The position numbers and the translations under genes were made by a program. Below, in pieces: positions 18,658 to 51,667 of a stretch of 64,000 nucleotides of DNA. Location: contig JBFXAN010000007.1 in assembly GCA_050184225.1 (NCBI GenBank), forward strand, positions 1,141 through 65,140, read 5' to 3'. Under the pieces are notes generated by a model, which was not told the origin of the DNA, did no database searches, and worked only from the letters and a program-made list of their open reading frames with translations. The stretch is from Dehalococcoidia bacterium (GTDB lineage Bacteria; Chloroflexota; Dehalococcoidia; CAUJGQ01). Numbering within the stretch: the stretch's first letter is position 1; each line of letters starts with the position of its first letter.

Positions 18658-19590
18658 ATGAACAATAATCTGCAAATACACAATCAGCGAGCGAATTTCA
18701 CCCTGGTCGTCGGGCAGCCGGCGACCCCACTGGAGGTGACCATCGAAGCCTTCCTCCGCTCGTTGCCTGGGAAGAACCGCAGCGCCGCCACGGTGAAGGC
18801 CTACCGCTCGGACCTCGGCCAGTTCGCCACCTGGCTGACCGAGAACAACGTCATCGCCGTTGACCCGACCAGGATTCGCCGTGCTGACGTTGAAGCCTAC
18901 CTCTCGGACCTGGCCCACCTCGGCCTGTCTGGTGTCTCACGGTCACGCAAGCTGGCCGCCATTCGGGAGTACTTCCGCTTCCTCGAGGACCACGGCACCA
19001 TTGCCCGCTCCCCCGCCGCCGGCGTGGACGGACCCCGGCGCGAGCAGAAGACCCGCTCGTATCTCAAACCCGACGAATATCGCGCCGTGCTGTCACTCGC
19101 CGGCAGCAACGCCCGCGACTACGCCATCTTGCAGGTCTTCCTGCAGACCGGCCTGCGCGTCTCGGAGCTGGTCCATTTGCGCATGGTCGACCTCGACCTG
19201 GCCGGCAAGGTGCTGACCGTGCGTGGTGGCAAGGGGCTCAGCGACCGGGAGATTGACCTGGAGAAGCATGCGATTGAGGCGGTGAAGAATTGGCTGAGAA
19301 TCCGCCCCCCCAGCTTGCACGAGCACCTATTCCTCAACTACCGGGGCGAACCCATCAGCGAGCGCAGCGTGCGGCGCCTGGTGGCCAAGTACCGCCACCG
19401 CGCCGGTCTGACGAAGAAAGCGACGCCCCACACGCTGCGGCACACCTTCGCCAGCTACAAAGCCCGTCGCGGCGTCCCCTTGCGCCAGGTCCAGGAATGG
19501 CTGGGGCACAAGAACATCGCCACGACGCAAATCTACGTCCACCTGGACCGCCAGGACGCCCAGAAAGCGATGGAGGCGACCAGCCTATGA
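18658..19590 (+). CDS. tyrosine recombinase (XerC/XerD-like)
   Basis: TVKAYRSDLGQF, GLRVSEL, PHTLRHTFAS and LGHKNIATTQIYVH motifs. Confidence 0.85.
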   Translation: MNNNLQIHNQRANFTLVVGQPATPLEVTIEAFLRSLPGKNRSAATVKAYRSDLGQFATWLTENNVIAVDPTRIRRADVEAYLSDLAHLGLSGVSRSRKLAAIREYFRFLEDHGTIARSPAAGVDGPRREQKTRSYLKPDEYRAVLSLAGSNARDYAILQVFLQTGLRVSELVHLRMVDLDLAGKVLTVRGGKGLSDREIDLEKHAIEAVKNWLRIRPPSLHEHLFLNYRGEPISERSVRRLVAKYRHRAGLTKKATPHTLRHTFASYKARRGVPLRQVQEWLGHKNIATTQIYVHLDRQDAQKAMEATSL

Positions 19591-21847: not shown

Positions 21848-23035
21848 CTATACAGATAGACGGGAGAGATCCCGTGCTCGATCTTGGCGGAACGCTGCGA
21901 GAGCTCCCGTCGATGCATCAGACGCCGGACCCAGAAAGCCTCGTTGGCCGGACATGAACCCATCACTCTGGAGAAGTTGCGCGCGCCCGATTGCCGCTGC
22001 GAGCACTTCAGCGACCACGGCGGCTCTCTCCGCGCCCGTCGGGCCTGAGATACCGAAAAGCGTCCATTCTCGGCGCAGCTCGTGAAGAAAGTGATGGAAC
22101 GCATCGCGCTCGCCCCACGGTACGTTCGCGGGTGTCTCTGCCTCTAGCAGCGGTCGGCACTGATCGCACTCAGGTCCGAAACGCCCGCGCAACCCGCGTC
22201 TATAGCCAAGCGTCAGTTGCTGTGGGCGGTACTCCCCTAGCGTGCCAGCGTCGTAATACCAGGTGGACCGTTGCCGATCTTCAGGGTCTTGCGTCATGAA
22301 CATCGTGGTGTCGAACTGCCGCGTGTTCCGAAAATTTCCACTTGCCAGCTCCGTCACGCCAGCGGCTGCGAAGAGCAGTGACTGCTGGTTAGCATAGCCA
22401 TAGAGGATGCGCTTGCCCGCGCGACGAATGCTAAGAAACCCATCCAAGAGGGCATACAAGAAGTTCTCGTCATCAATCAAGAACCGGCTGTGCGGATGCT
22501 GTACCAGGAAGTACACGCCATCAACGGGATAACTCACCACCTGGTCAAGCACCGCATCGAACCTCGATTCGCTCGAAACAACAGACGGGCCTACGGCAAC
22601 CGTCATGTATGTAGGCGTACCCGCTGCGCAGCGGCTGCCCGCCTCAGCAATTCTCATTTGCAGCTCAAGCCACGGTTCGTCGGCAGAATCTGAGAACCGG
22701 CCCGGCAAGATGACTTCGTCCACGTGCACTCTGTTTCTTTGGTATTCAACAACGCGCTCGCAGAAGTCATGTGCCTCGAATTCTCGAGTAGAGAAGTCTG
22801 CCCCTTCCCAATATTCATGCACGAGGATATTCGGGTGGTCGGTCCGCGGTTCATAAAACTGTGGGTCGCAGAGAACGACTCCATCCAGGTCGTGAATTTC
22901 TCCTGCATCGCGCAGGAGCGAATCGGGATTCCGATATGCACGTGGAGACAGGACCACGCCGGAACTCTGGTGTGCTGGGAGAAAATCTCGCACCAGCGGC
23001 ATCATGTTCCAGCCCTGTTGCATTAGGAATCGCAT
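21848..23035 (-). CDS. hypothetical protein (third gene of nuclease-like/kinase cluster)
   Basis: 395 aa from ATG 23035, with a GAGG RBS 19 nt after the kinase stop. No family recognised. Confidence 0.55.
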   Translation of the reverse strand: MRFLMQQGWNMMPLVRDFLPAHQSSGVVLSPRAYRNPDSLLRDAGEIHDLDGVVLCDPQFYEPRTDHPNILVHEYWEGADFSTREFEAHDFCERVVEYQRNRVHVDEVILPGRFSDSADEPWLELQMRIAEAGSRCAAGTPTYMTVAVGPSVVSSESRFDAVLDQVVSYPVDGVYFLVQHPHSRFLIDDENFLYALLDGFLSIRRAGKRILYGYANQQSLLFAAAGVTELASGNFRNTRQFDTTMFMTQDPEDRQRSTWYYDAGTLGEYRPQQLTLGYRRGLRGRFGPECDQCRPLLEAETPANVPWGERDAFHHFLHELRREWTLFGISGPTGAERAAVVAEVLAAAIGRAQLLQSDGFMSGQRGFLGPASDASTGALAAFRQDRARDLSRLSV

Positions 23036-23054
23036 TACATCCCCGCCTCGCCCG

Positions 23055-23928
<874 letters not shown>

Positions 23929-25390: not shown

Positions 25391-25648
25391 ATGGCATCGT
25401 CCCTTGAGACGCTGGAGCTGGAGGAGTTCGCCTGGCTGTTTGAGGACGATGTGGACGCGGACGACTTGCAGGAAGCCGCCGACGAATTGCAAAGGGAGTT
25501 GAGAGCTCTCGACACAGCGTCGAGCCAGGAATATCAGGCCCTTGGGCGAGTTCGCTGGCTTGTCCGCCTCATCGGGCAGTCGGAGCGGTACGGGTTTGGA
25601 CTCAGTGGTCGGTTCGCAGAGCGACTCGACACCAAGGACCGGTATTGA
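25391..25648 (+). CDS. small acidic hypothetical protein
   Basis: 85 aa. Its stop overlaps the start of the ImmA-like gene (TGATG). Confidence 0.35.
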   Translation: MASSLETLELEEFAWLFEDDVDADDLQEAADELQRELRALDTASSQEYQALGRVRWLVRLIGQSERYGFGLSGRFAERLDTKDRY

Positions 25649-26157
25649 TGCGCAAAGCGTATTGTCGAAGTGAAGCCCAGCGACTTCTTTCCGATTGCAC
25701 CATCAATGCACCACCGGTAGACGCTACGGCGGCCGCGGCGTCTCTATTCCTTGAGGTTCAAGTGAAACGTCCGTGGCGGTGGGCCTCACGGTCCTTGCTC
25801 CGTCGGGAGGACGGTCAGATCTGGGTGAACGCTGATGAGTCCCGGCGTGGTCAACGGTTCTCCATCGGCCATGAGATCGGACATTTCCTCCTGCATCCGG
25901 ATACCAGCGTCTTCTCGGAGCACGCGGATCCAGAGACGTTGGACTACGCTCCGGATCCGCAAAAGACACTCGAGGCTGAAGCCGACTACTTCAGCAGCGT
26001 GCTGCTTGTTCCTCCGAAGTGGTTCAGCGCAGACGTGCTGGTCGGTCTCCAGACCAGGGAACTGGTCTGCCGCTACGACGTCTCCGACGAGGTCGTGTTC
26101 ATCGCCCTGCAACAGCGTGGGCTGCTAAGTAGGCTGGGAAAGCGCTCGCGGCGGTAG
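25648..26157 (+). CDS. ImmA/IrrE-family zinc metallopeptidase
   Basis: IGHEIGHFLLHP (HExxH) and a downstream EAEADYF motif. Confidence 0.7.
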   Translation: MRKAYCRSEAQRLLSDCTINAPPVDATAAAASLFLEVQVKRPWRWASRSLLRREDGQIWVNADESRRGQRFSIGHEIGHFLLHPDTSVFSEHADPETLDYAPDPQKTLEAEADYFSSVLLVPPKWFSADVLVGLQTRELVCRYDVSDEVVFIALQQRGLLSRLGKRSRR

Positions 26158-26754
26158 CCCCAGTTCCTGCCGCACTTCAGCCAGATATCGCTGTACGTCC
26201 GCACCACCCGCATCACGCGTTTCAGCGAGGAACTCCTCGCGGTCTTCGCCGGTAGCCCCGCGCGCCATCCTCGTGAACTGCTGGACCTCCCTCGGTTGCT
26301 GTGCGCTCAGCTCCAGCAGGGTTATTAGATGCGTCGGGTCGAACGAAAGCGCCTGCGACAACGCCCGCCATACGCTGGGCGGCTTGACCGCCCAGGGGTT
26401 CACCGCTTGAGATTCGAGTCTCTGAATGGCGACTGGTGAGATTCGCAGGCCATCCTGAGCGAGCCGTTGCACCAGCGCACTCTCACTCAGACCGAGTGCG
26501 AGCCGGCGCTGCTTGAGCGCCGCGCCGACATCGATGTTCTCGTTGCGCGCGAACAGTGTTCGGTGGAGGTTGATCCACAACTGCTCCTGAGTGAGTGCCT
26601 GCTGCTGCTTTGCCGCCTGGACCGCGGCCTGAGCAAGAGCAGCAGCCTCCTCGGGAAAGCTGCGTCTGAGCTCGTGAAGATCAGGTTCTTCTCCTTGATT
26701 GATGTATTCCCAGAAGCGCCGGACGCCGGGCCCCTGTCCTCGACCACTAGTCAT
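26125..26754 (-). CDS. HTH (XRE-like) domain protein
   Basis: LKQRRLALGLSESALVQRLAQDGLRISPVAIQRLE. The start ATG at 26754 overlaps the upstream stop (ATGACTAG). Confidence 0.55.
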   Translation of the reverse strand: MTSGRGQGPGVRRFWEYINQGEEPDLHELRRSFPEEAAALAQAAVQAAKQQQALTQEQLWINLHRTLFARNENIDVGAALKQRRLALGLSESALVQRLAQDGLRISPVAIQRLESQAVNPWAVKPPSVWRALSQALSFDPTHLITLLELSAQQPREVQQFTRMARGATGEDREEFLAETRDAGGADVQRYLAEVRQELGLPPRALSQPT

Positions 26755-27517
26755 ATGTGCCCTCGTACCCAGAAAGCTCACGGAGGCGGGCGAGTCCCTC
26801 GGCAATCAGCTTGCGCGCCTTGGATTCACTGCACCCGAGTGTCGAGGCGACGGTGTGCTCCTCAGGGTTGGTGCTGTAGACCTTCAGGTCCATTAGCACA
26901 TGCAAGGCTATCGCTTGTGCCATCTCATCCGGCAGGTGCGCGAGCCATGCTTGGGCAACAAGCTTGCCGTCAACCTCGCTAGCCCCGTCCTCAACAACTC
27001 CCGGCAAGCTATCGTGTGCGATAGCCCAGGGCTCCGTATAAGCCTCATCGCCCGACGGAACAATCCGCCAAGCCGCCCGCTCTCGGGTACGCTCCTTCCC
27101 TTCTATTACCTTGCGGTACGCGGTCTGCGCCACTCTGTGCATAGCGAGGTTGAAGCGGTTTTCGAAGAAAGACTCTCCGTTAAGCACCGCCTCGAAAAAC
27201 TCGTGACCTAGCTCATCTTCGACCTCCTCCCGGTCGTACGCAGACAGCACGTGGACCTTCGTCTTCTCCACGGCACGTACGGCCGCTTTCACTCGGGGTG
27301 TTGCACGCTCGATGAGCAACTCGTACAGGCGATCGCCAGCAATTCGGCCGTAGACGCGGCACGCGGTCACGATCGTCTCGATGGACTGGTGCGTGAGGCG
27401 GTCGAAGAAATCGAAGGCGCCCGGCTCCCCCAGCGCCTCCCATTCCGCCGCGAGTTCGGGCGGCTTCGGCTTCTTGTTCACGGCCACTGTATCTTCGCCA
27501 CCTCCTTGGTCATCCAC
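26747..27517 (-). CDS. sigma-70 region-4-like / HTH regulatory protein
   Basis: The C-terminal TVASTLGCSESKARKLIAEGLARLRE is a region-4-like HTH. The gene is divergent from the Ubl operon. Confidence 0.45.
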   Translation of the reverse strand: MDDQGGGEDTVAVNKKPKPPELAAEWEALGEPGAFDFFDRLTHQSIETIVTACRVYGRIAGDRLYELLIERATPRVKAAVRAVEKTKVHVLSAYDREEVEDELGHEFFEAVLNGESFFENRFNLAMHRVAQTAYRKVIEGKERTRERAAWRIVPSGDEAYTEPWAIAHDSLPGVVEDGASEVDGKLVAQAWLAHLPDEMAQAIALHVLMDLKVYSTNPEEHTVASTLGCSESKARKLIAEGLARLRELSGYEGTYD

Positions 27518-27663
27518 CCCTAGTTATTAATAGCAGCCCGGCTTTCAAAACCCGTACGTGCCCAGATGCGATCCCGTCGGCCGACCCGTACAGGTTTCCT
27601 GGCCTCGGGTGCGATCAACCATATAGAGGGGTGACGAGATGCCCCACTTCACAGGAGGACGTG

Positions 27664-27936
27664 ATGACAACCACAGAGCAGATCCACGCAGATGCGGAAC
27701 GGCCCGTGACCGTCACCGTGACGGTCAACAATGGGCCGGTCGTGTTCCACATTAAGAAGGCTACCGGAAGCGAGATCAAGGCGACCGCTATCAGTCAGGG
27801 CGTGAACATCCAGGCAGACTTCGTCCTGTACGAGGTCCACGGTGGCGGCAAGCTTAAGCCGGTTCTGGATGACGACACCGTGACGTTGCACGAGCGCCAG
27901 GCGTTCCGCGCAGTGGCGCCGGACGACAACAGTTAG
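27664..27936 (+). CDS. ubiquitin-like beta-grasp protein (multiubiquitin-type)
   Basis: VTVTVNNGPVVFHIKKATGSEIKATAISQGVNIQADFVLYEV...TVTLHERQAF has a beta-grasp pattern. An AGGAGG RBS precedes ATG 27664. Confidence 0.65.
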   Translation: MTTTEQIHADAERPVTVTVTVNNGPVVFHIKKATGSEIKATAISQGVNIQADFVLYEVHGGGKLKPVLDDDTVTLHERQAFRAVAPDDNS

Positions 27937-27945
27937 GAGAGCCGC

Positions 27946-28332
27946 ATGACCCCAGAGGTGGCACGCGCGATCGACGATATCCGCACGGCCTTCCCCGGCC
28001 ACCGGCTTGAGGTCCAGGACGAAGCGCAAGGCGGCGCCTACGTTGTCGTCCACGACCTGCCCATCGGTGAGCAGTACGCGCCAGCGACGAGTTGGTGCGG
28101 GTTCGTCATCACGTTCCAGTATCCACGGGCGGACGTTTATCCCCATTTCCTCGATCCGAACCTGCGCCGAGTCGACGGCAAGCCGCTTGGCGAGAGCTTC
28201 TCCGGCCAACCGGTGGATTGGAACGGCCGTCAGGCATATCAGGTCTCTCGCCGGTCCAACCGCTGGAGCGCCGCCACCGATACGGCAGCGACGAAGCTGG
28301 CGAAGGTGTTGGAGTGGGTGCGATCGCGATGA
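27946..28332 (+). CDS. prokaryotic E2/UBC-like protein
   Basis: 128 aa with an FQYPRADVYPHFLDPNL core, placed between the Ubl and the JAB::E1 genes as in Bil-type operons. Confidence 0.65.
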   Translation: MTPEVARAIDDIRTAFPGHRLEVQDEAQGGAYVVVHDLPIGEQYAPATSWCGFVITFQYPRADVYPHFLDPNLRRVDGKPLGESFSGQPVDWNGRQAYQVSRRSNRWSAATDTAATKLAKVLEWVRSR

Positions 28333-29729
28333 AGCAACCGATATCACTCACGATCGATGCGCCGCTGTACGCACAACTGGAGCAGCATCTCTTCCCTGGC
28401 GATCGGGATGAGCACGGGGCGGTGATCGCCGCCGGCATCGCCGAGACCGGTCGGGGCACCCGCCTCCTCGCCAGAGGACTGTTCCTGGCGCGCGACGGCA
28501 TTGACTACGTTCCGGGCACACGGGGCTACCGCGCCCTCACGCCACGCTTCGTGGCGGAGACGGTCGAACACTGCGCCAGGGAGAACCTTTGTTACCTGGC
28601 CGTCCATAATCACGGCGGCGGGGACCAGGTGCGCTTCTCCCTGCAGGATCTCGCTTCGCACCGTCGAGGCTACCCGGCCCTGCTCGACATCACCTACGGG
28701 GGGCCAGTGGGTGCGCTCGTCCTCACGCCGGCGGCTGCTGCCGGTGACATCTGGACGCCCGACGGACGCCGCTCTCTCAGCCACCTGCGCGTTGTGGGAC
28801 CGCGCGCCCGTACCCTGTATCCGGCGCCACCCCGGCGCCCTGATCACGCCGACCCGATGTACGACCGGCACGCACGCCTATTTGGTGATGTCGGTCAGGC
28901 GATCCTCGGCGGGCTGAAGGTGGGGATCATCGGTCTGGGCGGTGGCGGCTCGTTGGTGAATGAGTGGCTGGCGCGACTCGGCATTGGCCATATCGTCGCC
29001 ATTGACTTCGACCGGGTGGAGCTGTCGAACCTGCCACGCATCGTCGGGGCGACCCGCCGTGACGCGGCGGTGGGACGCTACAAGGTCGACGTGGCGCGCC
29101 GCGTCGCCCGCCAGGCGAACCCACGCATTCGCTTCGACGCCGTCGTCGGCGACATCCTTGATGAACCGACCGCTCGCCGTCTGACGGACGTGGACTTCCT
29201 CATGCTCGCCAGCGACACCATCCAGAGCCGGCTGGTCTTCAACGCGCTCGTCCACCAATACCTGATCCCTGGTGTGCAGATCGGAGCGAAGGTCCGCACC
29301 GACCGCACCACGCGTCAGGTGACGGAGATCCACACCGCAACGCGGCCGGTGTTGCCGGCCGCCGGCCACGGCTGCCTGGAGTGCCACGACCTCATTCCGG
29401 CCGCGCGGCTGAGTGAGGAGGCGCTGAGCGAGGGTGAGCGGCGGGCACAACGATATGTCGAAGATGAGACGGTCGCTGAGCCGAGTGTGATTGCCCTGAA
29501 CGTGCTGTCGGCGGGCCAGGCCGTTGCCGACCTGATGCTGATGTTCACCGGTTTGTACGAAGGCATCGAGGCGCTGCCTCATCAACTGCACTTCGTCAGG
29601 GAACGGGCGCTTAACGAGGTAACACCACACGCGAACCCGACCTGCTTGGATTGCAGTACACACTCGCGGAGCCGGCGGGCACGCGGAGACCGGATGCGGT
29701 TACCCTGCCGTGCCCCGTCGTCCAACTGA
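28329..29729 (+). CDS. JAB/JAMM peptidase fused to ThiF/E1-like adenylating enzyme
   Basis: JAB part: DEHGAVIAAG...AVHNHGGGDQVRFSLQD. E1 part: VGIIGLGGGGSLVNEWLARLGIGHIVAIDFDRVELSNLPR with CLECH...CLDC pairs. The ATGA overlaps the E2 stop. Confidence 0.8.
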   Translation: MKQPISLTIDAPLYAQLEQHLFPGDRDEHGAVIAAGIAETGRGTRLLARGLFLARDGIDYVPGTRGYRALTPRFVAETVEHCARENLCYLAVHNHGGGDQVRFSLQDLASHRRGYPALLDITYGGPVGALVLTPAAAAGDIWTPDGRRSLSHLRVVGPRARTLYPAPPRRPDHADPMYDRHARLFGDVGQAILGGLKVGIIGLGGGGSLVNEWLARLGIGHIVAIDFDRVELSNLPRIVGATRRDAAVGRYKVDVARRVARQANPRIRFDAVVGDILDEPTARRLTDVDFLMLASDTIQSRLVFNALVHQYLIPGVQIGAKVRTDRTTRQVTEIHTATRPVLPAAGHGCLECHDLIPAARLSEEALSEGERRAQRYVEDETVAEPSVIALNVLSAGQAVADLMLMFTGLYEGIEALPHQLHFVRERALNEVTPHANPTCLDCSTHSRSRRARGDRMRLPCRAPSSN

Positions 29730-30008
29730 TTCGCGCCAATCGGAGCCGACTATATCCGCAGAATCGACCTTCTGCGTCATGACTGGCCGCCGAACCATTC
29801 ACACGGCGCAGCGCATGCAAGTTACGGCAACGTGTCCATCGTATCGAAACCTACATCGCCAACAACGTCTCCCACGACTCCCGAATCCGTCCTAGGGAGG
29901 GTATGTAGTCCGCCCCTGTCTCCTACCGCCGATCACAGACTTCCATTCGCGCGGCGTGTTGACGCCACGCCGAGGACACGGCCATAGTGTGCATCAAGCT
30001 GCAGAGCC

Positions 30009-31751
30009 ATGACCTGTGATCCGACATCACCGCGGGCGGTCGAGCACGAGTCGGGAGGTCGCGCCGTGCCATCCCATTGGAATCAGCTCCTGCGGCAGCA
30101 ACGGGTGGCGGCGGGTCTCAGCCGCGAACAGCTGGCCGCACGGGCTGGGGTCTCGCGTGACACCGTGGTCGCCTACGAACTTGGCCGGCGACCACCCACA
30201 CGGACAACGCTCGTTCGCCTTGCTGGTGCGGCATCGCCGACGACGGCCGAAGCGAATCGGATCGTCGCCGCCGCCGGCTTCCACCCAGAGCCGGACGCTG
30301 ATCTGGCGGTGTTGCATCAGCGCCGACCGGCACCGACCTCACTGGCCGAGGCGGTTCGCGGGTACGATTGGCCGTGCCTGGTCGTCAACGAGCGGATGGA
30401 GATCGTCGGCTGGAATGCGGCCGCGATCCAAGTCGGCGAATGGGACTTTGCCACCCAATCACCCACGCCGCGCGAGCGCAATATGCTGCGGATCGCGGCC
30501 CAGCCGCACTTCCGCCAGCGGGCGCTCAATTGGGACGCGATCGTCAGTGACCTGCTCGGGCTGGTCAAAGGCGAGGCGCCAGAACTCTTGCAGTCGGGCA
30601 CCGCCGACCCCTACTTCCTGGCGGTGGTCAACGACATCGCTACCCACCACAGCGCCGCCCTGCCGGACCTGATGCGGCTCTGGACGGCCGCCACGCCGTA
30701 TGACCCACGCCACCGCAACATCCAGTACCCTCACTGGCGCACCGCCGCCGGTGACGAGTTGCGTTTCAATACGGTGGTCGTGACCTGGAGCGACTTCGAC
30801 GCACTGTACGCCAACGACTGGCAGCCGGCCGATGCGTTCACCTGCGAATGGCTCGCCAATCGACGACTGGCGTCGGTGGGCTCCCAGCCACCCACGTCCA
30901 TCCCGGCCGTGGAACCGGCGGCGGCGCCGACCTGGTTTGCCCGACTGCGGGCAGCGCGCGAACAATCCGGCCTCACGCGCAGGCAGTTGGCCACCCTGAC
31001 GGAACTCCATCCGCGCACGCTAGACAACTGGGAGACGGGCCGGCACACGCCCGACCGCGAGGGCATCCTCCACTTCGCGCGGGCGATGCGGCTCGACGGT
31101 GGCACGACCAACGCCATCCTCGCCGCCGCCGGCCTCGAGCCGGAGCCGTCGGACTGGGCCTTGTTCATCGCCCAGCAATCACTGCGGGTGGCACCCACTC
31201 GTTATGAGCTGCTGGCCGGCCAGCCGCCGGCATCCCTAGCGGAGATTCGGCGGGAGATCGGCGCGCACACCTGGCCCTGCCTGGTAGTGGGACCGGGCTG
31301 TGACATCATCGCCGCCAACGCGCCGCTGGCACGCGTTGTCGGTGGTGACCCGCTGGAGCTACACCGCAACCTGGTGCGCTTCTTCCTCAGCCGGACCGTG
31401 CGCGAGCGGGTGGTCAACTGGGACGAAGTGGTGACGGCGGTCGTACCCAGCACGCTGCGACAGGCGCTCGGCGGTGAGCGGACCACCCCGGCGCTACGCC
31501 CCCTGACAGCGGAACTGGAGCGGGAGGAACCAGGGGTTCTCCCGCAGCTTCAGGCCCTCTGGCACTCTTCGCCGCTCCCGGTGCTCCAGAGTCGGGTCGT
31601 GTTCCCGCTGGTCTGGCGGCACGCCGACGGCACGGCGCTCGCCTTCAACGCGATCATCTCGCTGTGGGACAGTCGCGTGCCGAGCTGGGTGATCGATTGG
31701 CATCCCACTGACGCAGTCACCTGGACCTGGTTGGCTGATCGCACGCGGTAA
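30009..31751 (+). CDS. tandem-duplicated HTH + MmyB-like ligand-binding regulator
   Basis: Two copies of an XRE HTH (GLSREQLAARAGVS; GLTRRQLATLTELH). Each is followed by a WPCLVV...NAA... MmyB-like domain. Confidence 0.7.
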   Translation: MTCDPTSPRAVEHESGGRAVPSHWNQLLRQQRVAAGLSREQLAARAGVSRDTVVAYELGRRPPTRTTLVRLAGAASPTTAEANRIVAAAGFHPEPDADLAVLHQRRPAPTSLAEAVRGYDWPCLVVNERMEIVGWNAAAIQVGEWDFATQSPTPRERNMLRIAAQPHFRQRALNWDAIVSDLLGLVKGEAPELLQSGTADPYFLAVVNDIATHHSAALPDLMRLWTAATPYDPRHRNIQYPHWRTAAGDELRFNTVVVTWSDFDALYANDWQPADAFTCEWLANRRLASVGSQPPTSIPAVEPAAAPTWFARLRAAREQSGLTRRQLATLTELHPRTLDNWETGRHTPDREGILHFARAMRLDGGTTNAILAAAGLEPEPSDWALFIAQQSLRVAPTRYELLAGQPPASLAEIRREIGAHTWPCLVVGPGCDIIAANAPLARVVGGDPLELHRNLVRFFLSRTVRERVVNWDEVVTAVVPSTLRQALGGERTTPALRPLTAELEREEPGVLPQLQALWHSSPLPVLQSRVVFPLVWRHADGTALAFNAIISLWDSRVPSWVIDWHPTDAVTWTWLADRTR

Positions 31752-31882: not shown

Positions 31883-34800
31883 ATGCGGCGGTTGATGCTT
31901 CTCGCCTCTATGCTTATCGTCGGCCTTTCCCTAAATGTCCGGCTCTTGAATGCCGCGCCCACTGATCTCGATCCGACCTTCGGTCAGGGAGGCGTCGCGA
32001 CGATCACGCCGCCACTCAACGGAACCGGCGGGCCAGTGCGCATCATCACCCAATCGGACGGGAAGATCTTCGCGATTAGCCAAGCCGGGTGGATGTATCG
32101 TGTCCAGGGTGATGGTGCGCCAGATACGACCTTCGGATCCATGCAGCATGGCGTAGCGGCCCTTGCTTTGCCGCCTGATACCACACTATTTGGCGTGACG
32201 ATAGTAGATGCATTTCTCGACAATAATGGCGCGTATGTCATCGTCTTTCAAGGAATTTGTGGTAATGTCTCTTGTTTGGCAATTCTCCGCTATACTAGAT
32301 TCGGCATTCTAGATACATTGTTCGGCAGTAGTGGTGCGATATACTACCAAAATTCCATTGCTTCCGGAGCGATGATGCAACCAGACGGGAAGATTGTTGT
32401 GGCCATTCGCACACAAGACCCTCTGCAGAGCTTCCGTCATGTCGCTTACTTGATTAGATTCAACGTCGATGGCAGCATTGACAATAGCTTCGGATCTAGT
32501 GGACTAGTAGAGTTTGCCTCTGACCCTACTACGTCGGTTACGACATTCGTAGTGGCTATTCAACCAGATGGAAAGATAGTTTCCGCTGGAGATTTTAATA
32601 CCGGAGGGCTACAGAATATACTTCGGATTCGCCGATACAATAGTAGTGGTTCAGTAGACAACTTGTTCGGAGTAAATCAAAGCGGCGCCATTGACATTCC
32701 TGTTAGCTCATCAGAAGCATTTACAGGCCCATATGTCCGAGCAATCCTAATTGATAGCACAGAAGGACTAACTATTGCTGGTAGAGTCAATGACCGTCTG
32801 GATGGCAACTCCAGGGTTCTACTTGTGCAACTGACACCATTGGGAACACCTGTCTCAACTTATGGAACAAGTGGCGTTATTCTTGGTAGTTCATTTCAAC
32901 CCGCTCCCTTCGACTTCGCCATTGATACGAATAACAAAGTAGTTTTGACAACGTTCATTCAAACAAGCAATAACGCTGGGGACATTGTGTCGATACGCTA
33001 CTTGCACAGTGGTCAAGTCGACACCGAGTTTGCCGCGGGAGGTGTCGTACGCACCAGCATTGGTATCGAAGGCCATGGGTCGCATGCAGCTATCTCGATC
33101 CAGCCTGATACTAAAATCGTGGTGGGTGCAGAGGGAACAGCATTCACGCTCGTGCGATATGTTGGTAGCTCCGCTGCAGGACCCACGGGAGCTAGGCTCG
33201 ACTTCACCCAACTGCCGTCGAGCACGGCCACGGCCGGTCAGCCTTTCGCCCAGCAGCCGAAAGTGACGGTGCGAGATGCTAGCGGCAACCCTGTCACGAG
33301 CTACAGCGGCACGGTCACGCTCGCGAAGGCGCCGAGCAGCACCGGACCCGGCAATCTCACCTGCACCGGTGGGCCGGGACCGAACCAGCAGACTGTCGTC
33401 AACGGCGTGGCGTCCTTTGCCGGGTGTGCGTTTGATCAGCCGGGGACCTATTTACTCCGGGCAACGAGTGGGACACTCGCCGCAGCCGACAGTACCGCCG
33501 TTACAGTAACGGGAACGGCACCACTGACGAAGGTTGCGGCTGTGGAGCCCCTGCCCCTCGGTCAGGCCCAAACCTGGACGATTACCGCCACCAACCCCGG
33601 CTCCACGCCCACGTCATCCGTCACCGTCACCGATGTGCTGCCAAGCCAGTATCGGAACCTGCAGGTGCGTTCGAGTGGCTGGAGCTGCAATTCCAGCAGT
33701 CAGACCACCAACAACCAGACGACCAGCCGGGTGACCTGCACCTGGCGCACGCCGCTGGCACCGGGAGCCAGCACCGCACCGATTACCATTCAAGCAGTCG
33801 CCGCAACCTGTGGCACGGCTCCGATCCCCAACACCGCCAGCGTCAGCTTCGCCTACGCAGGGATGTCGGCTCCAACTACGGCGACCGCCAGCGCGATGAC
33901 GACTATTACCTGTTCGGGGACGCCGACTCCCAATCCCTCTGCATCTCCTCCACCATCCCAGCGCCGCTATGCTGCCGGTGGCGATTCGATACCTTTCGGC
34001 GCAGATCTATCCGAGAGCGTTCGCACGGGTCAGAATTATCCGAGCCAGTTGCTTAACAACCATCTCGCCACGCTCAACTTCTCTTCAACCGCCTTCCTGA
34101 ATACCGCCCAAAGTGGCGCGTCGAGCACGAACTATGTTTCGGGTGGTGGCAGCTTTACGCGGCAGCTCGATCCGACTGTGGCACATCGACCAGACCTCAT
34201 CACGATGACTTTGGGTGTCGACAATAAGGTGCTCCCGAGCTTAGTAGAGCAGTGTCTGCCGCTTCTCCAGGCGTTCGACATTGCTGCGACAGTAGCGTGT
34301 GAAAACACAATTCTGAACGACGAGGCCGCCTGGAATACCTTGATAACGGATCTGCAGGTAATCTTCTCCCGTTACTTGCAACTGATGCAGGAGAACCGCC
34401 AACTTCTTGTTGCCGTGACGAACTACTACAATCCGCTGCCCCGCCGGCTCACCGACGACACGATCAGAGCGCTCTGCGACCAGCTCCAGGCCGGTTTCTC
34501 CGGCCGCTGCCGCGAGCAGCTCAACGAGCTCAGCCCGGCGTTTATCGGCGCCAATGCAGTCATCGAACGACTCAACCGCACGATCGAGGGGATGGTCCGG
34601 AGATTCACTCCCTTCGCCGGCGGCCGATTCGTGTTCGTTGATCTCTATCGATCCTTCATCGGGCACTGCACATCGATCAATGCCACCATTGCTGTCACGC
34701 CAGCGGGTGGCAACGCTAGCGGCAACCTGGGTTGCTCAGAGAGCTGGATCGAGCCGGCCTTCCCGATTCAGGGCTCCAAACAGATACCGATTACGGTGGC

Positions 34801-34954
34801 AGGTCAGCAGGTCGTTACCTTCACGGTTGCGCTGATGGGACAGGCGGGGGTGCATCCGAACGCCGCGGGACATCGCTGCATCGCCGCGTTGATTTGGGAA
34901 GCAACCAAAGCCAGGCTTGGCTCATCAGAGCCGGCCAAGCAACCATGTGCTTAG
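31883..34954 (+). CDS. large secreted protein: delta-60-type repeats + Ig-like middle + C-terminal SGNH/GDSL hydrolase
   Basis: Signal peptide, repeated DxxFGxxG...QxDGKIV units, and GGDSIPFG (GDS block) with a later HPNAAGH block. Confidence 0.7.
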   Translation: MRRLMLLASMLIVGLSLNVRLLNAAPTDLDPTFGQGGVATITPPLNGTGGPVRIITQSDGKIFAISQAGWMYRVQGDGAPDTTFGSMQHGVAALALPPDTTLFGVTIVDAFLDNNGAYVIVFQGICGNVSCLAILRYTRFGILDTLFGSSGAIYYQNSIASGAMMQPDGKIVVAIRTQDPLQSFRHVAYLIRFNVDGSIDNSFGSSGLVEFASDPTTSVTTFVVAIQPDGKIVSAGDFNTGGLQNILRIRRYNSSGSVDNLFGVNQSGAIDIPVSSSEAFTGPYVRAILIDSTEGLTIAGRVNDRLDGNSRVLLVQLTPLGTPVSTYGTSGVILGSSFQPAPFDFAIDTNNKVVLTTFIQTSNNAGDIVSIRYLHSGQVDTEFAAGGVVRTSIGIEGHGSHAAISIQPDTKIVVGAEGTAFTLVRYVGSSAAGPTGARLDFTQLPSSTATAGQPFAQQPKVTVRDASGNPVTSYSGTVTLAKAPSSTGPGNLTCTGGPGPNQQTVVNGVASFAGCAFDQPGTYLLRATSGTLAAADSTAVTVTGTAPLTKVAAVEPLPLGQAQTWTITATNPGSTPTSSVTVTDVLPSQYRNLQVRSSGWSCNSSSQTTNNQTTSRVTCTWRTPLAPGASTAPITIQAVAATCGTAPIPNTASVSFAYAGMSAPTTATASAMTTITCSGTPTPNPSASPPPSQRRYAAGGDSIPFGADLSESVRTGQNYPSQLLNNHLATLNFSSTAFLNTAQSGASSTNYVSGGGSFTRQLDPTVAHRPDLITMTLGVDNKVLPSLVEQCLPLLQAFDIAATVACENTILNDEAAWNTLITDLQVIFSRYLQLMQENRQLLVAVTNYYNPLPRRLTDDTIRALCDQLQAGFSGRCREQLNELSPAFIGANAVIERLNRTIEGMVRRFTPFAGGRFVFVDLYRSFIGHCTSINATIAVTPAGGNASGNLGCSESWIEPAFPIQGSKQIPITVAGQQVVTFTVALMGQAGVHPNAAGHRCIAALIWEATKARLGSSEPAKQPCA

Positions 34955-48665: not shown

Positions 48666-49091
48666 ATGGACCTGACGACTACCGATACAAGTGCCACCGT
48701 GGTCCCAGACCACGACACGACCAACACAAACCGGCCCAAGATCATCGGCGTTGCCCAGGAGCTGGTCATCATTCCCTTCACGGAGGAGATCGTCCTCGCT
48801 GCCCAGAGCGTAGAGGAGTCCGACCGGGCCCGGGCGACCGAGGCACTCGCGGGTCAACTGGCGGCGCTCTGGGGATGCGCCGATCATCCGCTCTATCACG
48901 CCGCGGCTGCCGAACTGCGGCGCCTCAAACTCCTCGATGACTTCGAGTTCGGCAAGGTGAAGTCGCGGCGGACGCAATGTCGCACCGTTCCATCGATGCG
49001 GGCCCGGCGCGAGGCAGCCAAGGCGGCTCGCCGGACGGCGCGGTATCAGGCGAGCCAGGCCGCCGTTGGCGACCACGGTGAAAGGACCTAG
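48666..49091 (+). CDS. hypothetical protein
   Basis: 141-aa ORF. No family recognised. Confidence 0.4.
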   Translation: MDLTTTDTSATVVPDHDTTNTNRPKIIGVAQELVIIPFTEEIVLAAQSVEESDRARATEALAGQLAALWGCADHPLYHAAAAELRRLKLLDDFEFGKVKSRRTQCRTVPSMRARREAAKAARRTARYQASQAAVGDHGERT

Positions 49092-49095
49092 CAGA

Positions 49096-49446
49096 ATGCG
49101 CGCATTGATCAGAAGCTCAAGTTTGGACAGGCACGCCCGGCGGGCGGCCCGCGCACACCGCCGTCACCATGATCCCGTCATCCCTCACCGTCCCCAATCG
49201 CTCACCCAGCACGTCCATTGGTGGCGGTTGCCGCCGGATCGGCGTAGTTGCCGGGGCCGGTGCGTGAGCTGCCGGCTCACCAAGCACTTCCCACACGGCA
49301 CCTACCGCTGCCCGAAGTGCCGCCGCGTAACGCTCCAGATCGTCAGCTTCCAGATCGGCTGTGGCCGCTGGCGGCACCGCTGCCCCGGCTGCTTCAGCGC
49401 CGAACTGACCGTCGACGAAGTGGACGACACGCTCGCCGCCGACTGA
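49096..49446 (+). CDS. hypothetical zinc-ribbon protein
   Basis: CPKCRRV...CPGCF pairs. The N-terminus is basic. Confidence 0.35.
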   Translation: MRALIRSSSLDRHARRAARAHRRHHDPVIPHRPQSLTQHVHWWRLPPDRRSCRGRCVSCRLTKHFPHGTYRCPKCRRVTLQIVSFQIGCGRWRHRCPGCFSAELTVDEVDDTLAAD

Positions 49447-49527
49447 CCTACGGCAACCAGCGAAACACCATCACCGCTGCGGAGGCACGGGATTCCGGCC
49501 TCCGCAGCGGCATTTCCGGAGACAGAC

Positions 49528-50994: not shown

Positions 50995-51655
50995 GGCTCC
51001 CGTCGTCTCTGAGCAACCTGTGTCGACATCCCACCGACGGCGGCCGCCCCGGATCTGGTTCGTTGGCGGCGCGCTGCTCGTGCTGCTTACCATCCTCACC
51101 GGGCCCTGCGCCGGCGCGGATGAGGCAACAGTGCCCGTCGGTCCCGAGGTGGAGTGGGCCTGCTTTGGCGCGCCGCCGGTCTGTCTGGCGAATGACCCCG
51201 CCCTGCCCTGGCTCAGCTACTACCGCGACCACCGCGTGCTGTTGGGTGAGGTGCTGCGCTGGACCAGCGTTAGCGGCCGCCAGCGCTGTCTCGCCACCAC
51301 CTTCAGCATCATCTGCCCCAACGACGACCCGCGCGCGGCCGGCACGATCTATCGATTCGAGCCGATTGACCTGGGAACACGCCTCCTGCCCCGGGGACTG
51401 GTCCCGACCCCTGGTGTCGCCGTGCCGCCGCTCGTCGCCACCTATCTCGACCAACTGCGCCGCGACCGCCATGACCCGACGTATTGGCTCGGACAGGCGA
51501 TCAGCGAACCGCTATGCGTCAGCATCGGTGGCCAGGCCGATCCGGGCACGTGCGAGGTCTGGTTCACGCGGGCCGTCGTCCGCTACCCCAACCGGCCGGA
51601 TGCGACGGTCGCCGACGTGTCTCGCGGCGACCTCGGCCGGCAGGGGTTGCCGTAG
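50969..51655 (+). CDS. secreted/membrane-anchored hypothetical protein
   Basis: AGGAAAGGAGGG RBS before ATG 50969, with a TM/signal segment IWFVGGALLVLLTILTG. Confidence 0.45.
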   Translation: MPAPMRLDEAPVVSEQPVSTSHRRRPPRIWFVGGALLVLLTILTGPCAGADEATVPVGPEVEWACFGAPPVCLANDPALPWLSYYRDHRVLLGEVLRWTSVSGRQRCLATTFSIICPNDDPRAAGTIYRFEPIDLGTRLLPRGLVPTPGVAVPPLVATYLDQLRRDRHDPTYWLGQAISEPLCVSIGGQADPGTCEVWFTRAVVRYPNRPDATVADVSRGDLGRQGLP

Positions 51656-51667
51656 GAGGGCGCCGCG

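What the first reader, a model, noticed from the sequence alone, without database searches (positions are those of the whole stretch)
27631..29729. Bil-type ubiquitin-like conjugation operon with a JAB::E1 fusion and an atypical Ubl C-terminus
Three genes are tightly coupled, with a 9-nt gap followed by an ATGA overlap.

- A 90-aa beta-grasp Ubl of multiubiquitin type.
- A 128-aa prokaryotic E2-like protein.
- A 466-aa protein fusing a JAB peptidase (HNHGGGDQVRFSLQD) to a ThiF/E1 domain (GLGGGGS...DFDRVELSNLPR, with CxxC pairs).

This is the gene set of Bil (bacterial ISG15-like) antiphage systems. Two details differ from what I would expect. The Ubl ends ...RQAFRAVAPDDNS, with no Gly in its last 25 or so residues. 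The E2-like protein has a single Cys (Cys51, SWCGF), which lies N-terminal to the YPHF core rather than after it.

Either processing is extensive or the chemistry differs from the canonical Gly-thioester relay.
Basis: partly seen in the sequence, partly recalled or inferred. Interest (0 to 1): 0.7.

Follow-up and report, generated by a model that had tools for sequence, protein, structure and literature searches.

The report
Serine-ended bacterial ubiquitin-like conjugation operon
This is a real three-gene bacterial ubiquitin-like tagging system of the recently described cysteine-free "Bub/6E" kind (not Bil), and it belongs to a widespread, apparently undescribed branch whose tag protein always ends in serine (…DDNS) instead of the usual glycine and which lacks the family's usual fourth gene.

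Summary
The operon encodes a 90-aa Ubl (27664-27936), a 128-aa E2-like protein (27946-28332) and a 466-aa JAB::E1 fusion (28329-29729), with a 9-nt gap and an ATGA overlap.

The "Bil" label is wrong.
- Pfam places the proteins in Multi_ubiq, Prok-E2_E and ThiF.
- The best solved-structure matches for all three proteins are Bub components (BubA, BubB, BubCD).
- Bub (the old "6E" class) conjugates through Tyr/Ser oxyesters and has no catalytic cysteines.

The two "atypical" details are family traits.
- Cys51 is not conserved (5/79).
- Invariant E2 residues are S101, R102, D63 and H67.
- The E1 crossover-loop Tyr376, equivalent to BubCD Y370, is invariant (74/74).
- The Ubl ends in D-D-N-S, with Ser in 76/76 genomic and 51/51 metagenomic homologues.
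- In Ubl-E2 fusions of the same clade, a variable linker follows that Ser.

None of about 90 related loci has BubE (DUF6527), whereas a true type I Bub locus has it and its Ubl ends in Gly. 53 of 81 loci carry a CapP-like M78 peptidase upstream.

My best reading is a third, BubE-less and Ser-terminated Bub clade: a new variant of a known kind. Its function is probably stress or antiphage related, but this is unproven.

The parts
27664..27936 (+). Ubl gene (BubA-like, single beta-grasp, 90 aa). The tail is F81-x-A-x-x-x-D87-D88-N89-S90, followed directly by the stop codon. The DDNS codons are 27922-27933.
   Evidence: ORF and RBS. Pfam Multi_ubiq 8.5e-9. AF2 model has pLDDT 83 with a beta-grasp at residues 17-84, and its top PDB hits are Bub multi-ubiquitin proteins 9cd2, 9d5b and 9d59, followed by ubiquitin. 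D87, D88 and S90 are invariant and N89 is 73/76; 71/76 homologues stop exactly after S90. DDNS is 51/51 in metagenomic homologues.
27946..28332 (+). E2-fold gene (BubB-like, 128 aa, Cys-less in function). The candidate catalytic residue is Ser101 (codon 28246-28248) in the invariant motif Q-x-S101-R102-R103-S104. D63, Y65, P66 and H67 are also invariant.
   Evidence: Pfam Prok-E2_E 3.6e-9. There are 720 homologue clusters, almost all standalone and about 127 aa. AF2 model has pLDDT 91 and its best PDB hit is Citrobacter BubB 9eae_C (TM 0.72, E 1.7e-5), followed by the Cap2 E2 domain and UBC enzymes. hhalign against BubB-like E2s gives 95% probability and aligns S101 with catalytic S333 and R103 with H335. 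Residue frequencies are; Cys51 is 5/79.
28329..29729 (+). JAB::E1 fusion gene (BubCD-like, 466 aa). The JAB/JAMM domain covers roughly aa 1-165 (nt 28329-28823), with E28, H93, H95, S104 and D107. The ThiF-type adenylation domain covers roughly aa 178-466, with G205, D226, N234, R237, K252 and D296. There are two CxxC pairs (C349/C352, C439/C442). The crossover-loop Tyr376 is at codon 29454-29456.
   Evidence: Pfam ThiF 7.9e-31. The best PDB sequence hit is Citrobacter BubCD 9ea4 (1.3e-24) across both domains, and the Tyr in QRYVED aligns with BubCD Y370. All listed residues are 73-74/74 in homologues, and 72/74 have no Cys in the crossover loop. Identity is 49% to the JAB-E1 of a fused DDNS-clade locus and 26% to a type I Bub JAB-E1.
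27518..27663 (.). Intergenic region shared by the Ubl operon and the divergent sigma-like/HTH genes. This is the presumed promoter/operator region. An RBS (AGGAGG) lies at 27653-27658.
   Evidence: Sequence. The simple scans found no sigma-70-like promoter, terminator or inverted repeat, so this assignment rests on position only.
25645..26157 (+). CapP-like M78 (ImmA/IrrE) metallopeptidase. It is the probable stress-responsive regulator partner of the operon.
   Evidence: Pfam Peptidase_M78 1.1e-13. PADLOC capP 5e-20. An M78 ORF lies within 4 kb upstream of the E2 in 53/81 related loci. It is 32% identical to the M78 directly upstream of the triad in L090.
26125..26805 (-). HTH_31-type DNA-binding protein (209-226 aa). 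It is a candidate repressor (CapH-like role). Membership in the system is tentative.
   Evidence: The Pfam HTH_31 hit is weak (5.8e-4, below cut-off). In L090, a 227-aa HTH_31 protein sits between a sigma-70 gene and the M78 gene, upstream of the same triad. The two HTH proteins do not align by BLASTP.
26747..27517 (-). Sigma-70 region-4-like protein (244-256 aa), divergent from the Ubl operon. Membership in the system is tentative.
   Evidence: Weak hits only: Sigma70_r4 0.012 and NCBIfam SigM 4.4e-4, all below cut-offs. L090 has a sigma70_r2/r4 protein in the analogous module, but there is no pairwise similarity.

Best explanation
The operon is a member of a distinct, widespread clade of the Bub ('bacterial ubiquitination-like', formerly 6E) protein-conjugation pathways. 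The clade has a Ubl ending in the invariant tail D-D-N-S, an E2 with the motif S-R-R-S, a JAB::E1 fusion, and no BubE (DUF6527) protease.

Proposed mechanism:
1. The operon is kept silent. It is induced by DNA damage or stress through an M78 (CapP-like) peptidase and an HTH repressor. This step is inferred from gene neighbourhood.
2. The ThiF-type domain of the JAB::E1 uses ATP to adenylate the alpha-carboxylate of the Ubl's terminal Ser90. This step is inferred from the intact adenylation site and from the exact, invariant position of the C-terminus.
3. Tyr376 on the Cys-less crossover loop takes the Ubl as a tyrosyl oxyester. This step is inferred by homology to BubCD Y370.
4. The Ubl passes to Ser101 of the E2 as a seryl oxyester. 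Invariant R102/R103, H67 and D63 tune the site. This step is inferred by profile alignment to BubB S333.
5. The Ubl is then transferred to lysines of still unknown targets.
6. The invariant JAB/JAMM domain trims the minority of precursors that carry a linker-E2 fusion or a short extension after the Ser. Because BubE is absent, the JAB domain probably also reverses conjugates.

The biological role is most likely a stress or antiphage response carried on mobile islands.
For: **Family placement**
- Pfam places the proteins in Multi_ubiq, Prok-E2_E and ThiF.
- The JAB::E1 is best matched by Citrobacter BubCD over both domains (1.3e-24), with the catalytic Tyr aligned.
- The E2 model is best matched by BubB (TM 0.72).
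- The E2 profile hits BubB by sequence at 0.0036 and by hhalign at 95% probability, with S101 on S333.
- The Ubl model is best matched by Bub multi-ubiquitin proteins.
- The known Bub chemistry is a Tyr/Ser oxyester relay with no Cys, with the JAB domain cleaving the Ubl-E2 precursor. This comes from Ye et al., bioRxiv 10.1101/2024.11.21.623953.

**Conservation across phyla**
- E1: Y376 74/74. JAB: E28, H93, H95, S104 and D107 74/74. Adenylation residues 73-74/74. No crossover-loop Cys in 72/74.
- E2: S101, R102, D63 and H67 79/79. Cys51 5/79.

**Ser90 as the mature end**
- Ser is present in 76/76 and 51/51 homologues.
- About 90% of the genes stop exactly there.
- The remainder carry short, unrelated extensions (DGR, GGE, GGFI, SS, GEEF, ERPIV, MY, C).
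- Nine Ubl-E2 fusions of the same clade have D-[DE]-x-S followed by a variable 4-10 aa linker and then the E2. This parallels the BubAB precursor, which is cut after Gly.

**Clade distinctness**
- No BubE-type CxCxC protein occurs in 81 loci or in the window.
- PF20137 is absent from the precomputed annotations of 10 further clade loci.
- A bona fide type I Bub locus (L082) has PF20137 BubE, a Ubl ending ...EQTEG and an E2 with QRWSRHR.
- JAB-E1 identity is 49% within the clade against 26% to type I.

**Context**
- An M78 peptidase lies upstream in 53/81 loci.
- Integrases, a TIR protein and DUF499/DUF1156 genes are nearby in related loci.
- An integrase lies at 18658-19590 in the window.
Against: - No biochemical data exist for this clade. 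Every catalytic step is inferred by homology.
- A non-Gly residue in the narrow E1 channel is unusual for Ubl activation, and I could not model the E1-Ubl complex.
- The E2 lacks the Ser-x-His arrangement of type I BubB (Arg replaces His). The simple profile alignment and hhalign differ by one register, so S101 versus S104 is not settled. The active-site loop is the least confident part of the model (pLDDT about 64).
- BubE could be encoded elsewhere in the genomes.
- Even for characterised Bub operons, no phage protection has been shown, so the biological role is open.
- The window's regulator layout is atypical: the M78 gene is on the + strand, and the HTH and sigma-like genes are on the - strand.
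Confidence: 0.6

Rival explanations
1. The system does not conjugate proteins. The Cys-less E2-fold protein is an inactive RWD-like adaptor, as first proposed for 6e operons. The E1 adenylates the Ubl C-terminus for other chemistry, such as sulfur-carrier-type thiocarboxylation or an MccB/PaaA-like modification of the tail. Alternatively, the Ubl tail is only a recognition element.
For: - Iyer et al. 2006 read the 6e E2-like domain as catalytically inactive.
- The E1 retains the ThiF/MoeB-type double CxxC zinc site that type I BubCD lacks at the aligned position.
- MoeB, ThiF, TcdA, MccB and PaaA are among its PDB sequence hits.
- A non-Gly, acidic, Asn-containing tail is reminiscent of E1-like enzymes that act on peptide substrates. 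This last point is from my own knowledge of MccB and is not tested here.
Against: - Homologous BubB, once thought 'inactive', is catalytic through Ser.
- The aligned Ser101 and neighbouring residues are invariant (79/79), which is not expected of a passive adaptor.
- The crossover Tyr is invariant.
- No rhodanese, cysteine desulfurase or other sulfur-transfer partner is conserved nearby.
- Asn89 is replaceable (S, V, A, E) while Ser90 is not, which argues against Asn-based cyclisation.
Confidence: 0.17
2. This is a Bil-type (bacterial ISG15-like) antiphage system. It would work through a Gly-thioester relay after extensive C-terminal processing of the Ubl.
For: The gross gene content is Ubl + E2 + JAB + E1, and the operon lies in a variable, integrase-bearing region.
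Against: - The JAB is fused to the E1 rather than separate.
- The E1 has no IAD/CYS domains or Prok-E2_C domain, only ThiF.
- No conserved Cys is present in the E2 or in the E1 crossover loop.
- All three proteins match Bub structures best, not Bil structures.
- The only glycines in the Ubl's C-terminal half (G60-62) lie in a loop inside the fold. The gene ends precisely at an invariant Ser.
Confidence: 0.02
3. This is a decayed or incomplete type I Bub operon: a BubAB fusion split by a nonsense mutation, with bubE lost. The odd C-terminus would then be an accident of this one genome.
For: - Ubl and E2 are in the same reading frame, separated by TAG plus three codons.
- Type I Bub normally has a fusion and BubE.
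Against: - The same split arrangement, tail and motifs recur in hundreds of protein clusters and in 80/81 loci from more than 10 phyla, with all catalytic residues intact.
- The in-frame relation occurs in 28/76 loci, which is about the 1/3 expected by chance.
- The proteins are only 20-26% identical to type I counterparts.
Confidence: 0.02

Closest known systems
Type I Bub operons (6E.1: BubAB, BubCD, BubE; Ye, Gong, Chambers, Corbett et al., bioRxiv 2024 / NSMB 2026)
   Same: - Multi_ubiq-type Ubl and Prok-E2_E-type Cys-less E2.
- JAB::E1 fusion with an invariant crossover-loop Tyr and no Cys.
- Fused Ubl-E2 precursors exist in both groups.
- Frequent association with CapH+CapP-type regulators and mobile islands.
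- All three window proteins have Bub proteins as their best structural matches.
   Different: - The Ubl ends in invariant Ser (D-D-N-S) rather than Gly.
- The E2 motif is Q-x-S-R-R-S rather than Q-R-W-S-R-H-R, with Arg in place of the accompanying His.
- No BubE/DUF6527 gene is present.
- The E1 keeps two CxxC pairs.
- Sequence identity to type I proteins is only about 20-26%.
- Ubl and E2 are usually separate genes.
Type II Bub operons (6E.2: BubA, BubBD, BubE)
   Same: - Multi_ubiq Ubl. The E. coli ZDHYS365 protein (9cd2) is the top fold hit for the window Ubl.
- Ser-based E2 and Tyr-based E1 chemistry.
   Different: - Type II fuses the E2 to the E1 and has no JAB.
- Type II has BubE and a Gly terminus.
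- The window has a JAB-E1 fusion, a free E2 and no BubE.
'6e' operon class of Iyer, Burroughs & Aravind 2006 (Genome Biol 7:R60)
   Same: The description fits: a poly- or solo Ubl, a Cys-less E2/RWD-like domain sometimes encoded as a standalone gene between the Ubl gene and the JAB+E1 gene, and a JAB-E1 fusion.
   Different: - The class description includes a metal-binding protein 'Y' (now BubE), which is absent here.
- The Ser terminus is not mentioned in the passages I could read.
Bil (BilABCD) antiphage systems
   Same: The general logic is the same: a Ubl, an E2, a JAB peptidase and an E1 in one operon, located in defence or mobile contexts.
   Different: Bil has a separate JAB, a eukaryote-like E1 with IAD-AAD-CYS domains, catalytic cysteines in E1 and E2, and a Gly-terminated Ubl. 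None of these holds here.
CapH+CapP regulators (Lau et al. 2022, as cited)
   Same: An M78 peptidase with a strong PADLOC capP match (5e-20) lies 1.5 kb upstream. M78 genes are upstream in 53/81 clade loci.
   Different: - In the window the gene just upstream of the M78 is an 85-aa acidic ORF without an HTH.
- The HTH protein is on the other strand, together with a sigma-like protein.

Membership tests
Bil (BilABCD) | Stand-alone JAB/JAMM peptidase (BilC) | tested here: not met
   The JAMM motif (E28, H93-x-H95, S104, D107) lies in the N-terminal 165 aa of the E1 protein. There is no separate JAB gene in the operon.
Bil (BilABCD) | [quoted passage not shown] | tested here: not met
   Only ThiF (aa 178-372) is found. 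The best PDB hit is the homodimeric-type BubCD. 72/74 homologues have no Cys in the crossover loop.
Bil (BilABCD) | E2 (BilB) with a catalytic cysteine | tested here: not met
   The only Cys (C51) is conserved in 5/79 homologues.
Bil (BilABCD) | Ubl with a C-terminal glycine | tested here: not met
   The Ubl ends in DDNS. Ser is present in 76/76 and 51/51 homologues.
Bub type I (6E.1) | Multiubiquitin-type beta-grasp Ubl (BubA) | tested here: met
   Pfam Multi_ubiq is above cut-off. The fold model matches Bub Ubl structures best.
Bub type I (6E.1) | Ubl encoded as a fusion to the E2 (BubAB) and released by the JAB domain after a conserved Gly | tested here: not met
   In the window these are separate genes with a 9-nt gap. 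The conserved terminal residue is Ser, not Gly. Fusion state is not a clean discriminator: a true type I locus can be split (L082), and this clade has fused members.
Bub type I (6E.1) | Cys-less UBC-fold E2 (BubB) with an invariant Ser accompanied by His (S-x-H) and Asp | tested here: inconclusive
   The fold and the Ser are met: TM 0.72 to BubB, and S101 aligns to S333 and is 79/79. The accompanying His is replaced by Arg103. Invariant H67 and D63 lie two residues to either side of the position aligned with D299. No coordinates were available to check the geometry.
Bub type I (6E.1) | JAB::E1 fusion (BubCD) with an intact adenylation site, no crossover-loop Cys and an invariant crossover Tyr | tested here: met
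   Both domains align to BubCD (1.3e-24), and Y376 aligns with Y370. Y376 is 74/74 and the adenylation residues are 73-74/74.
Bub (types I and II) | BubE (DUF6527/PF20137) Ser-His protease gene in the operon ('all Bub operons encode BubE') | tested here: not met
   No CxCxC...C protein occurs in the window or in 81 loci, and the pattern was validated on a real BubE. No PF20137 appears in the annotated neighbours of 10 clade loci. No conserved same-strand downstream gene exists. A copy elsewhere in the genomes could not be tested.
6e operon class (Iyer et al. 2006) | Ubl(s) + Cys-less E2/RWD-like domain + JAB-E1 fusion (+ metal-binding protein Y) | tested here: met
   Three of the four components are present in the described order, including the 'standalone E2-like gene sandwiched between' variant. 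Protein Y is absent.
CapH+CapP regulation | M78 peptidase (CapP) paired with an adjacent HTH repressor (CapH) next to the regulated operon | tested here: inconclusive
   The capP match is strong (5e-20) and recurs across the clade (53/81). In the window the adjacent co-directional ORF has no HTH. The HTH_31 match of the convergent gene is below cut-off.
Antiphage defence system | Demonstrated protection against phage | not testable with these tools
   Only contextual evidence is available. Even characterised Bub operons have not been shown to protect.

The most novel reading that the evidence does not exclude
The invariant C-terminal serine is not merely a tolerated substitute for glycine. It marks different chemistry. 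For example, the Ser side chain might take part in activation or transfer, through acyl shift or ester/lactone-type intermediates. Alternatively, it might direct the tag to a non-lysine or non-protein acceptor. In either case the JAB domain would be the sole eraser. That would make this clade a mechanistically new Ubl pathway: the first with an obligate non-glycine modifier terminus, run entirely without cysteines.
Probability: 0.15. Interest if true: 0.85.

Novelty: new variant of a known kind. Interest (0 to 1): 0.58.

Why it matters
Every characterised ubiquitin-like modifier that an E1 activates for protein conjugation ends in glycine. The Bub pathways have already overturned the rule that E1 and E2 need cysteines.

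This window is a clean example of a large, phylogenetically broad sister clade. It comprises hundreds of protein clusters across Cyanobacteria, Acidobacteriota, Chloroflexota, Planctomycetota, Verrucomicrobiota, Proteobacteria and Actinomycetota, and some members are on plasmids. The clade keeps the Bub Tyr/Ser machinery but differs in three ways:
- It replaces the Gly terminus with an invariant Ser.
- It swaps the E2 active-site His for Arg.
- It has no BubE protease.

This gives a natural experiment on three questions:
- How strict the Gly requirement of E1 enzymes really is.
- What tunes oxyester reactivity in the E2.
- Which peptidase erases the mark.

The clade's very frequent pairing with DNA-damage-type regulators (M78/HTH) also makes it a good candidate for finding the still unknown biological role and targets of Bub-like conjugation. 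For annotation, the result shows that 'Ubl + E2 + JAB + E1' should not be called Bil by default.

Tried and rejected
**Searches that gave nothing**
- Single-sequence phmmer of the Ubl and the E2 against PDB gave only noise. Profiles and fold search were needed.
- PADLOC and NCBIfam have no models matching the Ubl or the E2.
- Promoter, terminator and inverted-repeat scans of 27400-30100 found nothing useful.
- A literature search for 'DDNS' together with 'ubiquitin-like' found nothing.

**Hypotheses tested and rejected**
- Stop-codon readthrough producing a BubAB-like fusion in the window. Ubl and E2 are in frame here, but across loci this holds in 28/76, which is about chance.
- Asn-based chemistry (succinimide or MccB-like). 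Asn89 varies (S, V, A, E) while Ser90 never does.
- Processing to an internal Gly. G60-62 are inside the fold.
- Cys51 as the catalytic residue (5/79).
- A conserved fourth gene downstream of the JAB-E1. The downstream ORFs are heterogeneous. Neighbour clustering recovered only HTH and M78 regulators and lineage-specific defence-like genes.

**Comparison that failed**
- Homology of the window's sigma-like and HTH proteins to the analogous L090 proteins. BLASTP found no similarity; only the M78 proteins align.

**Sources not available**
- Not held in the library: Burroughs et al. 2009 and 2011, Chambers et al. 2024 (Nature version), the NSMB 2026 version of Ye et al. and the preprint's Table S1. 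I therefore cannot exclude that this clade is mentioned there.
- No model coordinates were accessible, so the S101/H67/D63 geometry could not be measured.


Full report
**1. What is there**

The + strand between 27.6 and 29.7 kb carries three tightly coupled genes.
- A 90-aa protein from ATG 27664, with AGGAGG five bases upstream; the stop codon ends at 27936.
- A 128-aa protein at 27946-28332. It begins nine bases after the first stop, and that stop codon sits inside its ribosome-binding site.
- A 466-aa protein at 28329-29729, which starts within an ATGA overlap.

Independent gene calls on the public source contig (GCA_050247955.1, JBFWTG010000189.1) give the same three products.

- the …RQAFRAVAPDDNS end, with no Gly after G62;
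- the single Cys51 in SWCGF;
- HNHGGGDQVRFSLQD, GLGGGGS and DFDRVELSNLPR;
- two CxxC pairs.

Pfam places the proteins in Multi_ubiq (8.5e-9), Prok-E2_E (3.6e-9) and ThiF (7.9e-31), all above the curated cut-offs.

**2. Which family: Bub/6E, not Bil**

The combination of Multi_ubiq, Prok-E2_E and a JAB fused to the N-terminus of a ThiF-type E1 defines the '6e' operon class of Iyer, Burroughs and Aravind (2006). They already noted a Cys-less E2/RWD-like domain that is sometimes a standalone gene between the Ubl gene and the JAB+E1 gene.

The Corbett laboratory renamed this class Bub. They showed that it conjugates the Ubl through a tyrosyl oxyester on the E1 crossover loop (BubCD Y370) and a seryl oxyester on the E2 (BubB S333, with H335 and D299). 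The JAB domain cleaves a BubAB precursor after a conserved Gly, and a DUF6527 protein, BubE, acts as a Ser-His protease that removes conjugates.

Bil differs in having a separate JAB, a eukaryote-like multi-domain E1, and catalytic cysteines.

The tool results all point to Bub:
- The window's JAB::E1 is best matched in the PDB by Citrobacter BubCD over both domains (1.3e-24). The Tyr of QRYVED aligns with Y370, once the two-residue tag offset of the deposited chain is taken into account.
- An AlphaFold model of the E2 (pLDDT 91) is best matched by Citrobacter BubB (TM 0.72, E 1.7e-5), ahead of the Cap2 E2 domain and classical UBCs.
- A model of the Ubl (pLDDT 83, beta-grasp at residues 17-84) is best matched by the multi-ubiquitin proteins of Bub operons, followed by ubiquitin.
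- PADLOC and NCBIfam have nothing for the Ubl or the E2.

**3. The 'atypical' details are clade-wide traits**

*Sampling.* The E2 has 720 homologue clusters at 90% identity, almost all standalone proteins of about 127 aa. It has 295 representatives at 50% identity in a 1.8-billion-protein library.

A scan of one genome per species returned 81 loci. They come from Cyanobacteria, Acidobacteriota, Chloroflexota, Planctomycetota, Verrucomicrobiota, Alpha- and Gammaproteobacteria, Actinomycetota, Nitrospirota, Myxococcota and others, including two plasmids. 80 of the 81 loci have the Ubl-E2-JAB::E1 triad. Ubl-to-E2 gaps are 1-16 nt, and the overlap into the E1 gene is 4 nt in 56/76.

*E2.*
- Cys51 is present in 5/79 homologues; V, I, F or L occupy the position otherwise.
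- D63, Y65, P66, H67, S101 and R102 are 79/79.
- R103 is 75/79 and S104 is 77/79.

*JAB::E1.*
- The JAMM residues E28, H93, H95, S104 and D107 are 74/74.
- Tyr376 is 74/74, and both CxxC pairs are 74/74.
- The adenylation residues are 73-74/74.
- 72/74 homologues have no Cys in the crossover loop.

*Ubl tail.*
- D87, D88 and S90 are 76/76, and N89 is 73/76.
- 71/76 genes stop immediately after S90.
- An independent set of 51 metagenomic homologues has DDNS in 51/51.

**4. Ser90 is the functional end**

The few proteins that continue past the Ser carry short, unrelated extensions: DGR, GGE, GGFI, SS, GEEF, ERPIV, MY and C.

The representative search also recovered nine Ubl-E2 fusions belonging to this clade. 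In all nine, D-[DE]-x-S is followed by a variable 4-10-residue linker and then the E2 domain. This is exactly the layout of the type I BubAB precursor, with Ser in place of the Gly after which the JAB domain cuts.

Two such fused loci consist of just two genes, the fusion and the JAB::E1, with CapH+CapP-type genes and an integrase alongside.

The residue before the Ser varies (N, S, V, A, E). I therefore reject Asn-based chemistry and processing to an internal Gly.

**5. The clade is distinct from published Bub types**

- *Positive control.* A bona fide type I-like locus (L082) has a Multi_ubiq Ubl ending …EQTEG, an E2 with QRWSRHR, a JAB-ThiF protein and a PF20137 BubE with the CPCKC zinc motif.
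- *BubE absent here.* No protein with that motif occurs in the window or in any of the 81 loci. PF20137 is absent from the precomputed annotation of ten further clade loci. No fourth gene is conserved downstream.
- *Sequence distance.* The window's JAB::E1 is 49% identical to that of a fused clade member but only 26% identical to the type I protein, which also lacks the first CxxC.
- *E2 active site.* Profile-profile alignment of the clade's E2 with BubB-like E2s (95% probability) places S101 on the catalytic Ser and R103 on the accompanying His. Y65, flanked by invariant D63 and H67, lies on the accompanying Asp. A plain profile alignment is shifted by one residue. The loop is the least confident part of the model. 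S101 is therefore the favoured nucleophile but not a proven one.

I found no description of this Ser-terminated, BubE-less clade in the literature available to me. Several key papers and the Bub operon table are not held, so I cannot rule out a prior mention.

**6. How it most likely works**

The sequence shows intact adenylation, JAMM, Tyr and Ser sites, and a precisely conserved Ser terminus. The following steps are inferred by homology to Bub:
1. The E1 adenylates the Ser90 carboxylate.
2. The Ubl transfers to Tyr376.
3. It then transfers to Ser101 of the E2.
4. Target lysines attack the E2-bound Ubl (aminolysis).

From the absence of BubE, and from an invariant JAMM site even though about 90% of the Ubls need no trimming, I infer that the JAB domain both matures the fused or extended precursors and serves as the deconjugase. 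The invariant Arg102/Arg103 may pair with the acidic D87/D88 tail; this is speculative.

*Regulation.* A CapP-like M78 peptidase (PADLOC capP 5e-20) lies 1.5 kb upstream. An M78 ORF lies within 4 kb upstream in 53/81 loci, about twice the 31% reported for Bub operons.

In the window the M78 gene is accompanied by a weak HTH_31 protein and a sigma-70-region-4-like protein on the opposite strand. One related locus (L090) has sigma70, HTH_31 and M78 genes in a row directly upstream of the triad, followed by a TIR protein and an integrase. Only the M78 proteins are alignable between the window and L090.

*Context.* The window region also holds a tyrosine recombinase at 18658-19590 and stretches of lower G+C. 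This is consistent with a mobile or variable island.

The biological role, whether antiphage or a general stress response, is unproven even for characterised Bub operons.

**7. Verdict**

- The Cys-less E2 is already explained by published work.
- The obligate Ser terminus, the S-R-R-S E2 motif and the lack of BubE define a widespread sister clade that appears undescribed.
- I rate it a new variant of a known kind, of moderate-to-good interest. It offers a direct test of the glycine rule for E1 substrates and of how oxyester relays are tuned.

Noticed in passing
window 18658-19590 (+): A tyrosine recombinase/phage-type integrase (Phage_integrase 2.8e-41 plus an N-terminal SAM-like domain). It lies about 8 kb upstream of the operon, next to a low-G+C stretch (15-18 kb, 0.53-0.54 against about 0.62 elsewhere). 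This suggests the Ubl operon sits on an integrated or variable island. I did not look for att repeats.
   Followed up: partly
window 25391-25648 (+), just upstream of the M78 gene: An 85-aa, very acidic ORF (MASSLETLELEEFAWLFEDDVDADD...) overlaps the start of the CapP-like M78 gene, in the position where a CapH HTH protein would be expected. It has no Pfam hit and no homologue in the 81 related loci. It was called as a gene on the source contig.
   Followed up: partly
window 30009-31751 (+): A 580-aa regulator made of two tandem copies of an HTH (HTH_31/HTH_3) plus an MmyB-like ligand-binding domain. It lies directly downstream of the operon and is preceded by the only sigma-70-like promoter match in the region (29959-29988).
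   Followed up: no
window 21848-23834 (-): A Ser/Thr protein kinase (Pkinase 1.7e-31; 23055-23834) overlaps a 415-aa ORF with no family match (21848-23095). This may be a further island-borne signalling or defence pair.
   Followed up: no
window 31883-34954 (+): A 1023-aa predicted secreted protein combining a DUF5122 beta-propeller repeat, DUF11 and a GDSL/SGNH lipase-like C-terminal part. It lies in a second lower-G+C stretch (0.56-0.57).
   Followed up: no
L090 3739-9123; L091 2238-11429; L087 7250-9766: Related loci place the DDNS-type operon next to a TIR_2 protein and an integrase (L090), next to DUF1156, DUF499 and DUF7680 genes (L091), and next to CapH+CapP and an integrase (L087). These are typical defence-island or mobile-element company.
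   Followed up: partly
L023, L025 (Acidobacteriaceae), L036-L058 (Verrucomicrobiota/Planctomycetota), L079: [quoted passage not shown] Only the last domain carries the DDNS tail. The window's Ubl is the minimal single-domain form.
   Followed up: partly
window 49000-52000: A stretch of markedly higher G+C (0.71-0.72) than the rest of the window. I did not examine it.
   Followed up: no
L045 9921-10169, L064 9919-10167, L075 9337-9555: In a few Planctomycetota/Verrucomicrobiota loci, a small conserved ORF (about 72-82 aa, MSKDRDRMVYRR.DGQWANERNDA...) overlaps or closely follows the end of the JAB::E1 gene. It is lineage-specific and not part of the core.
   Followed up: no
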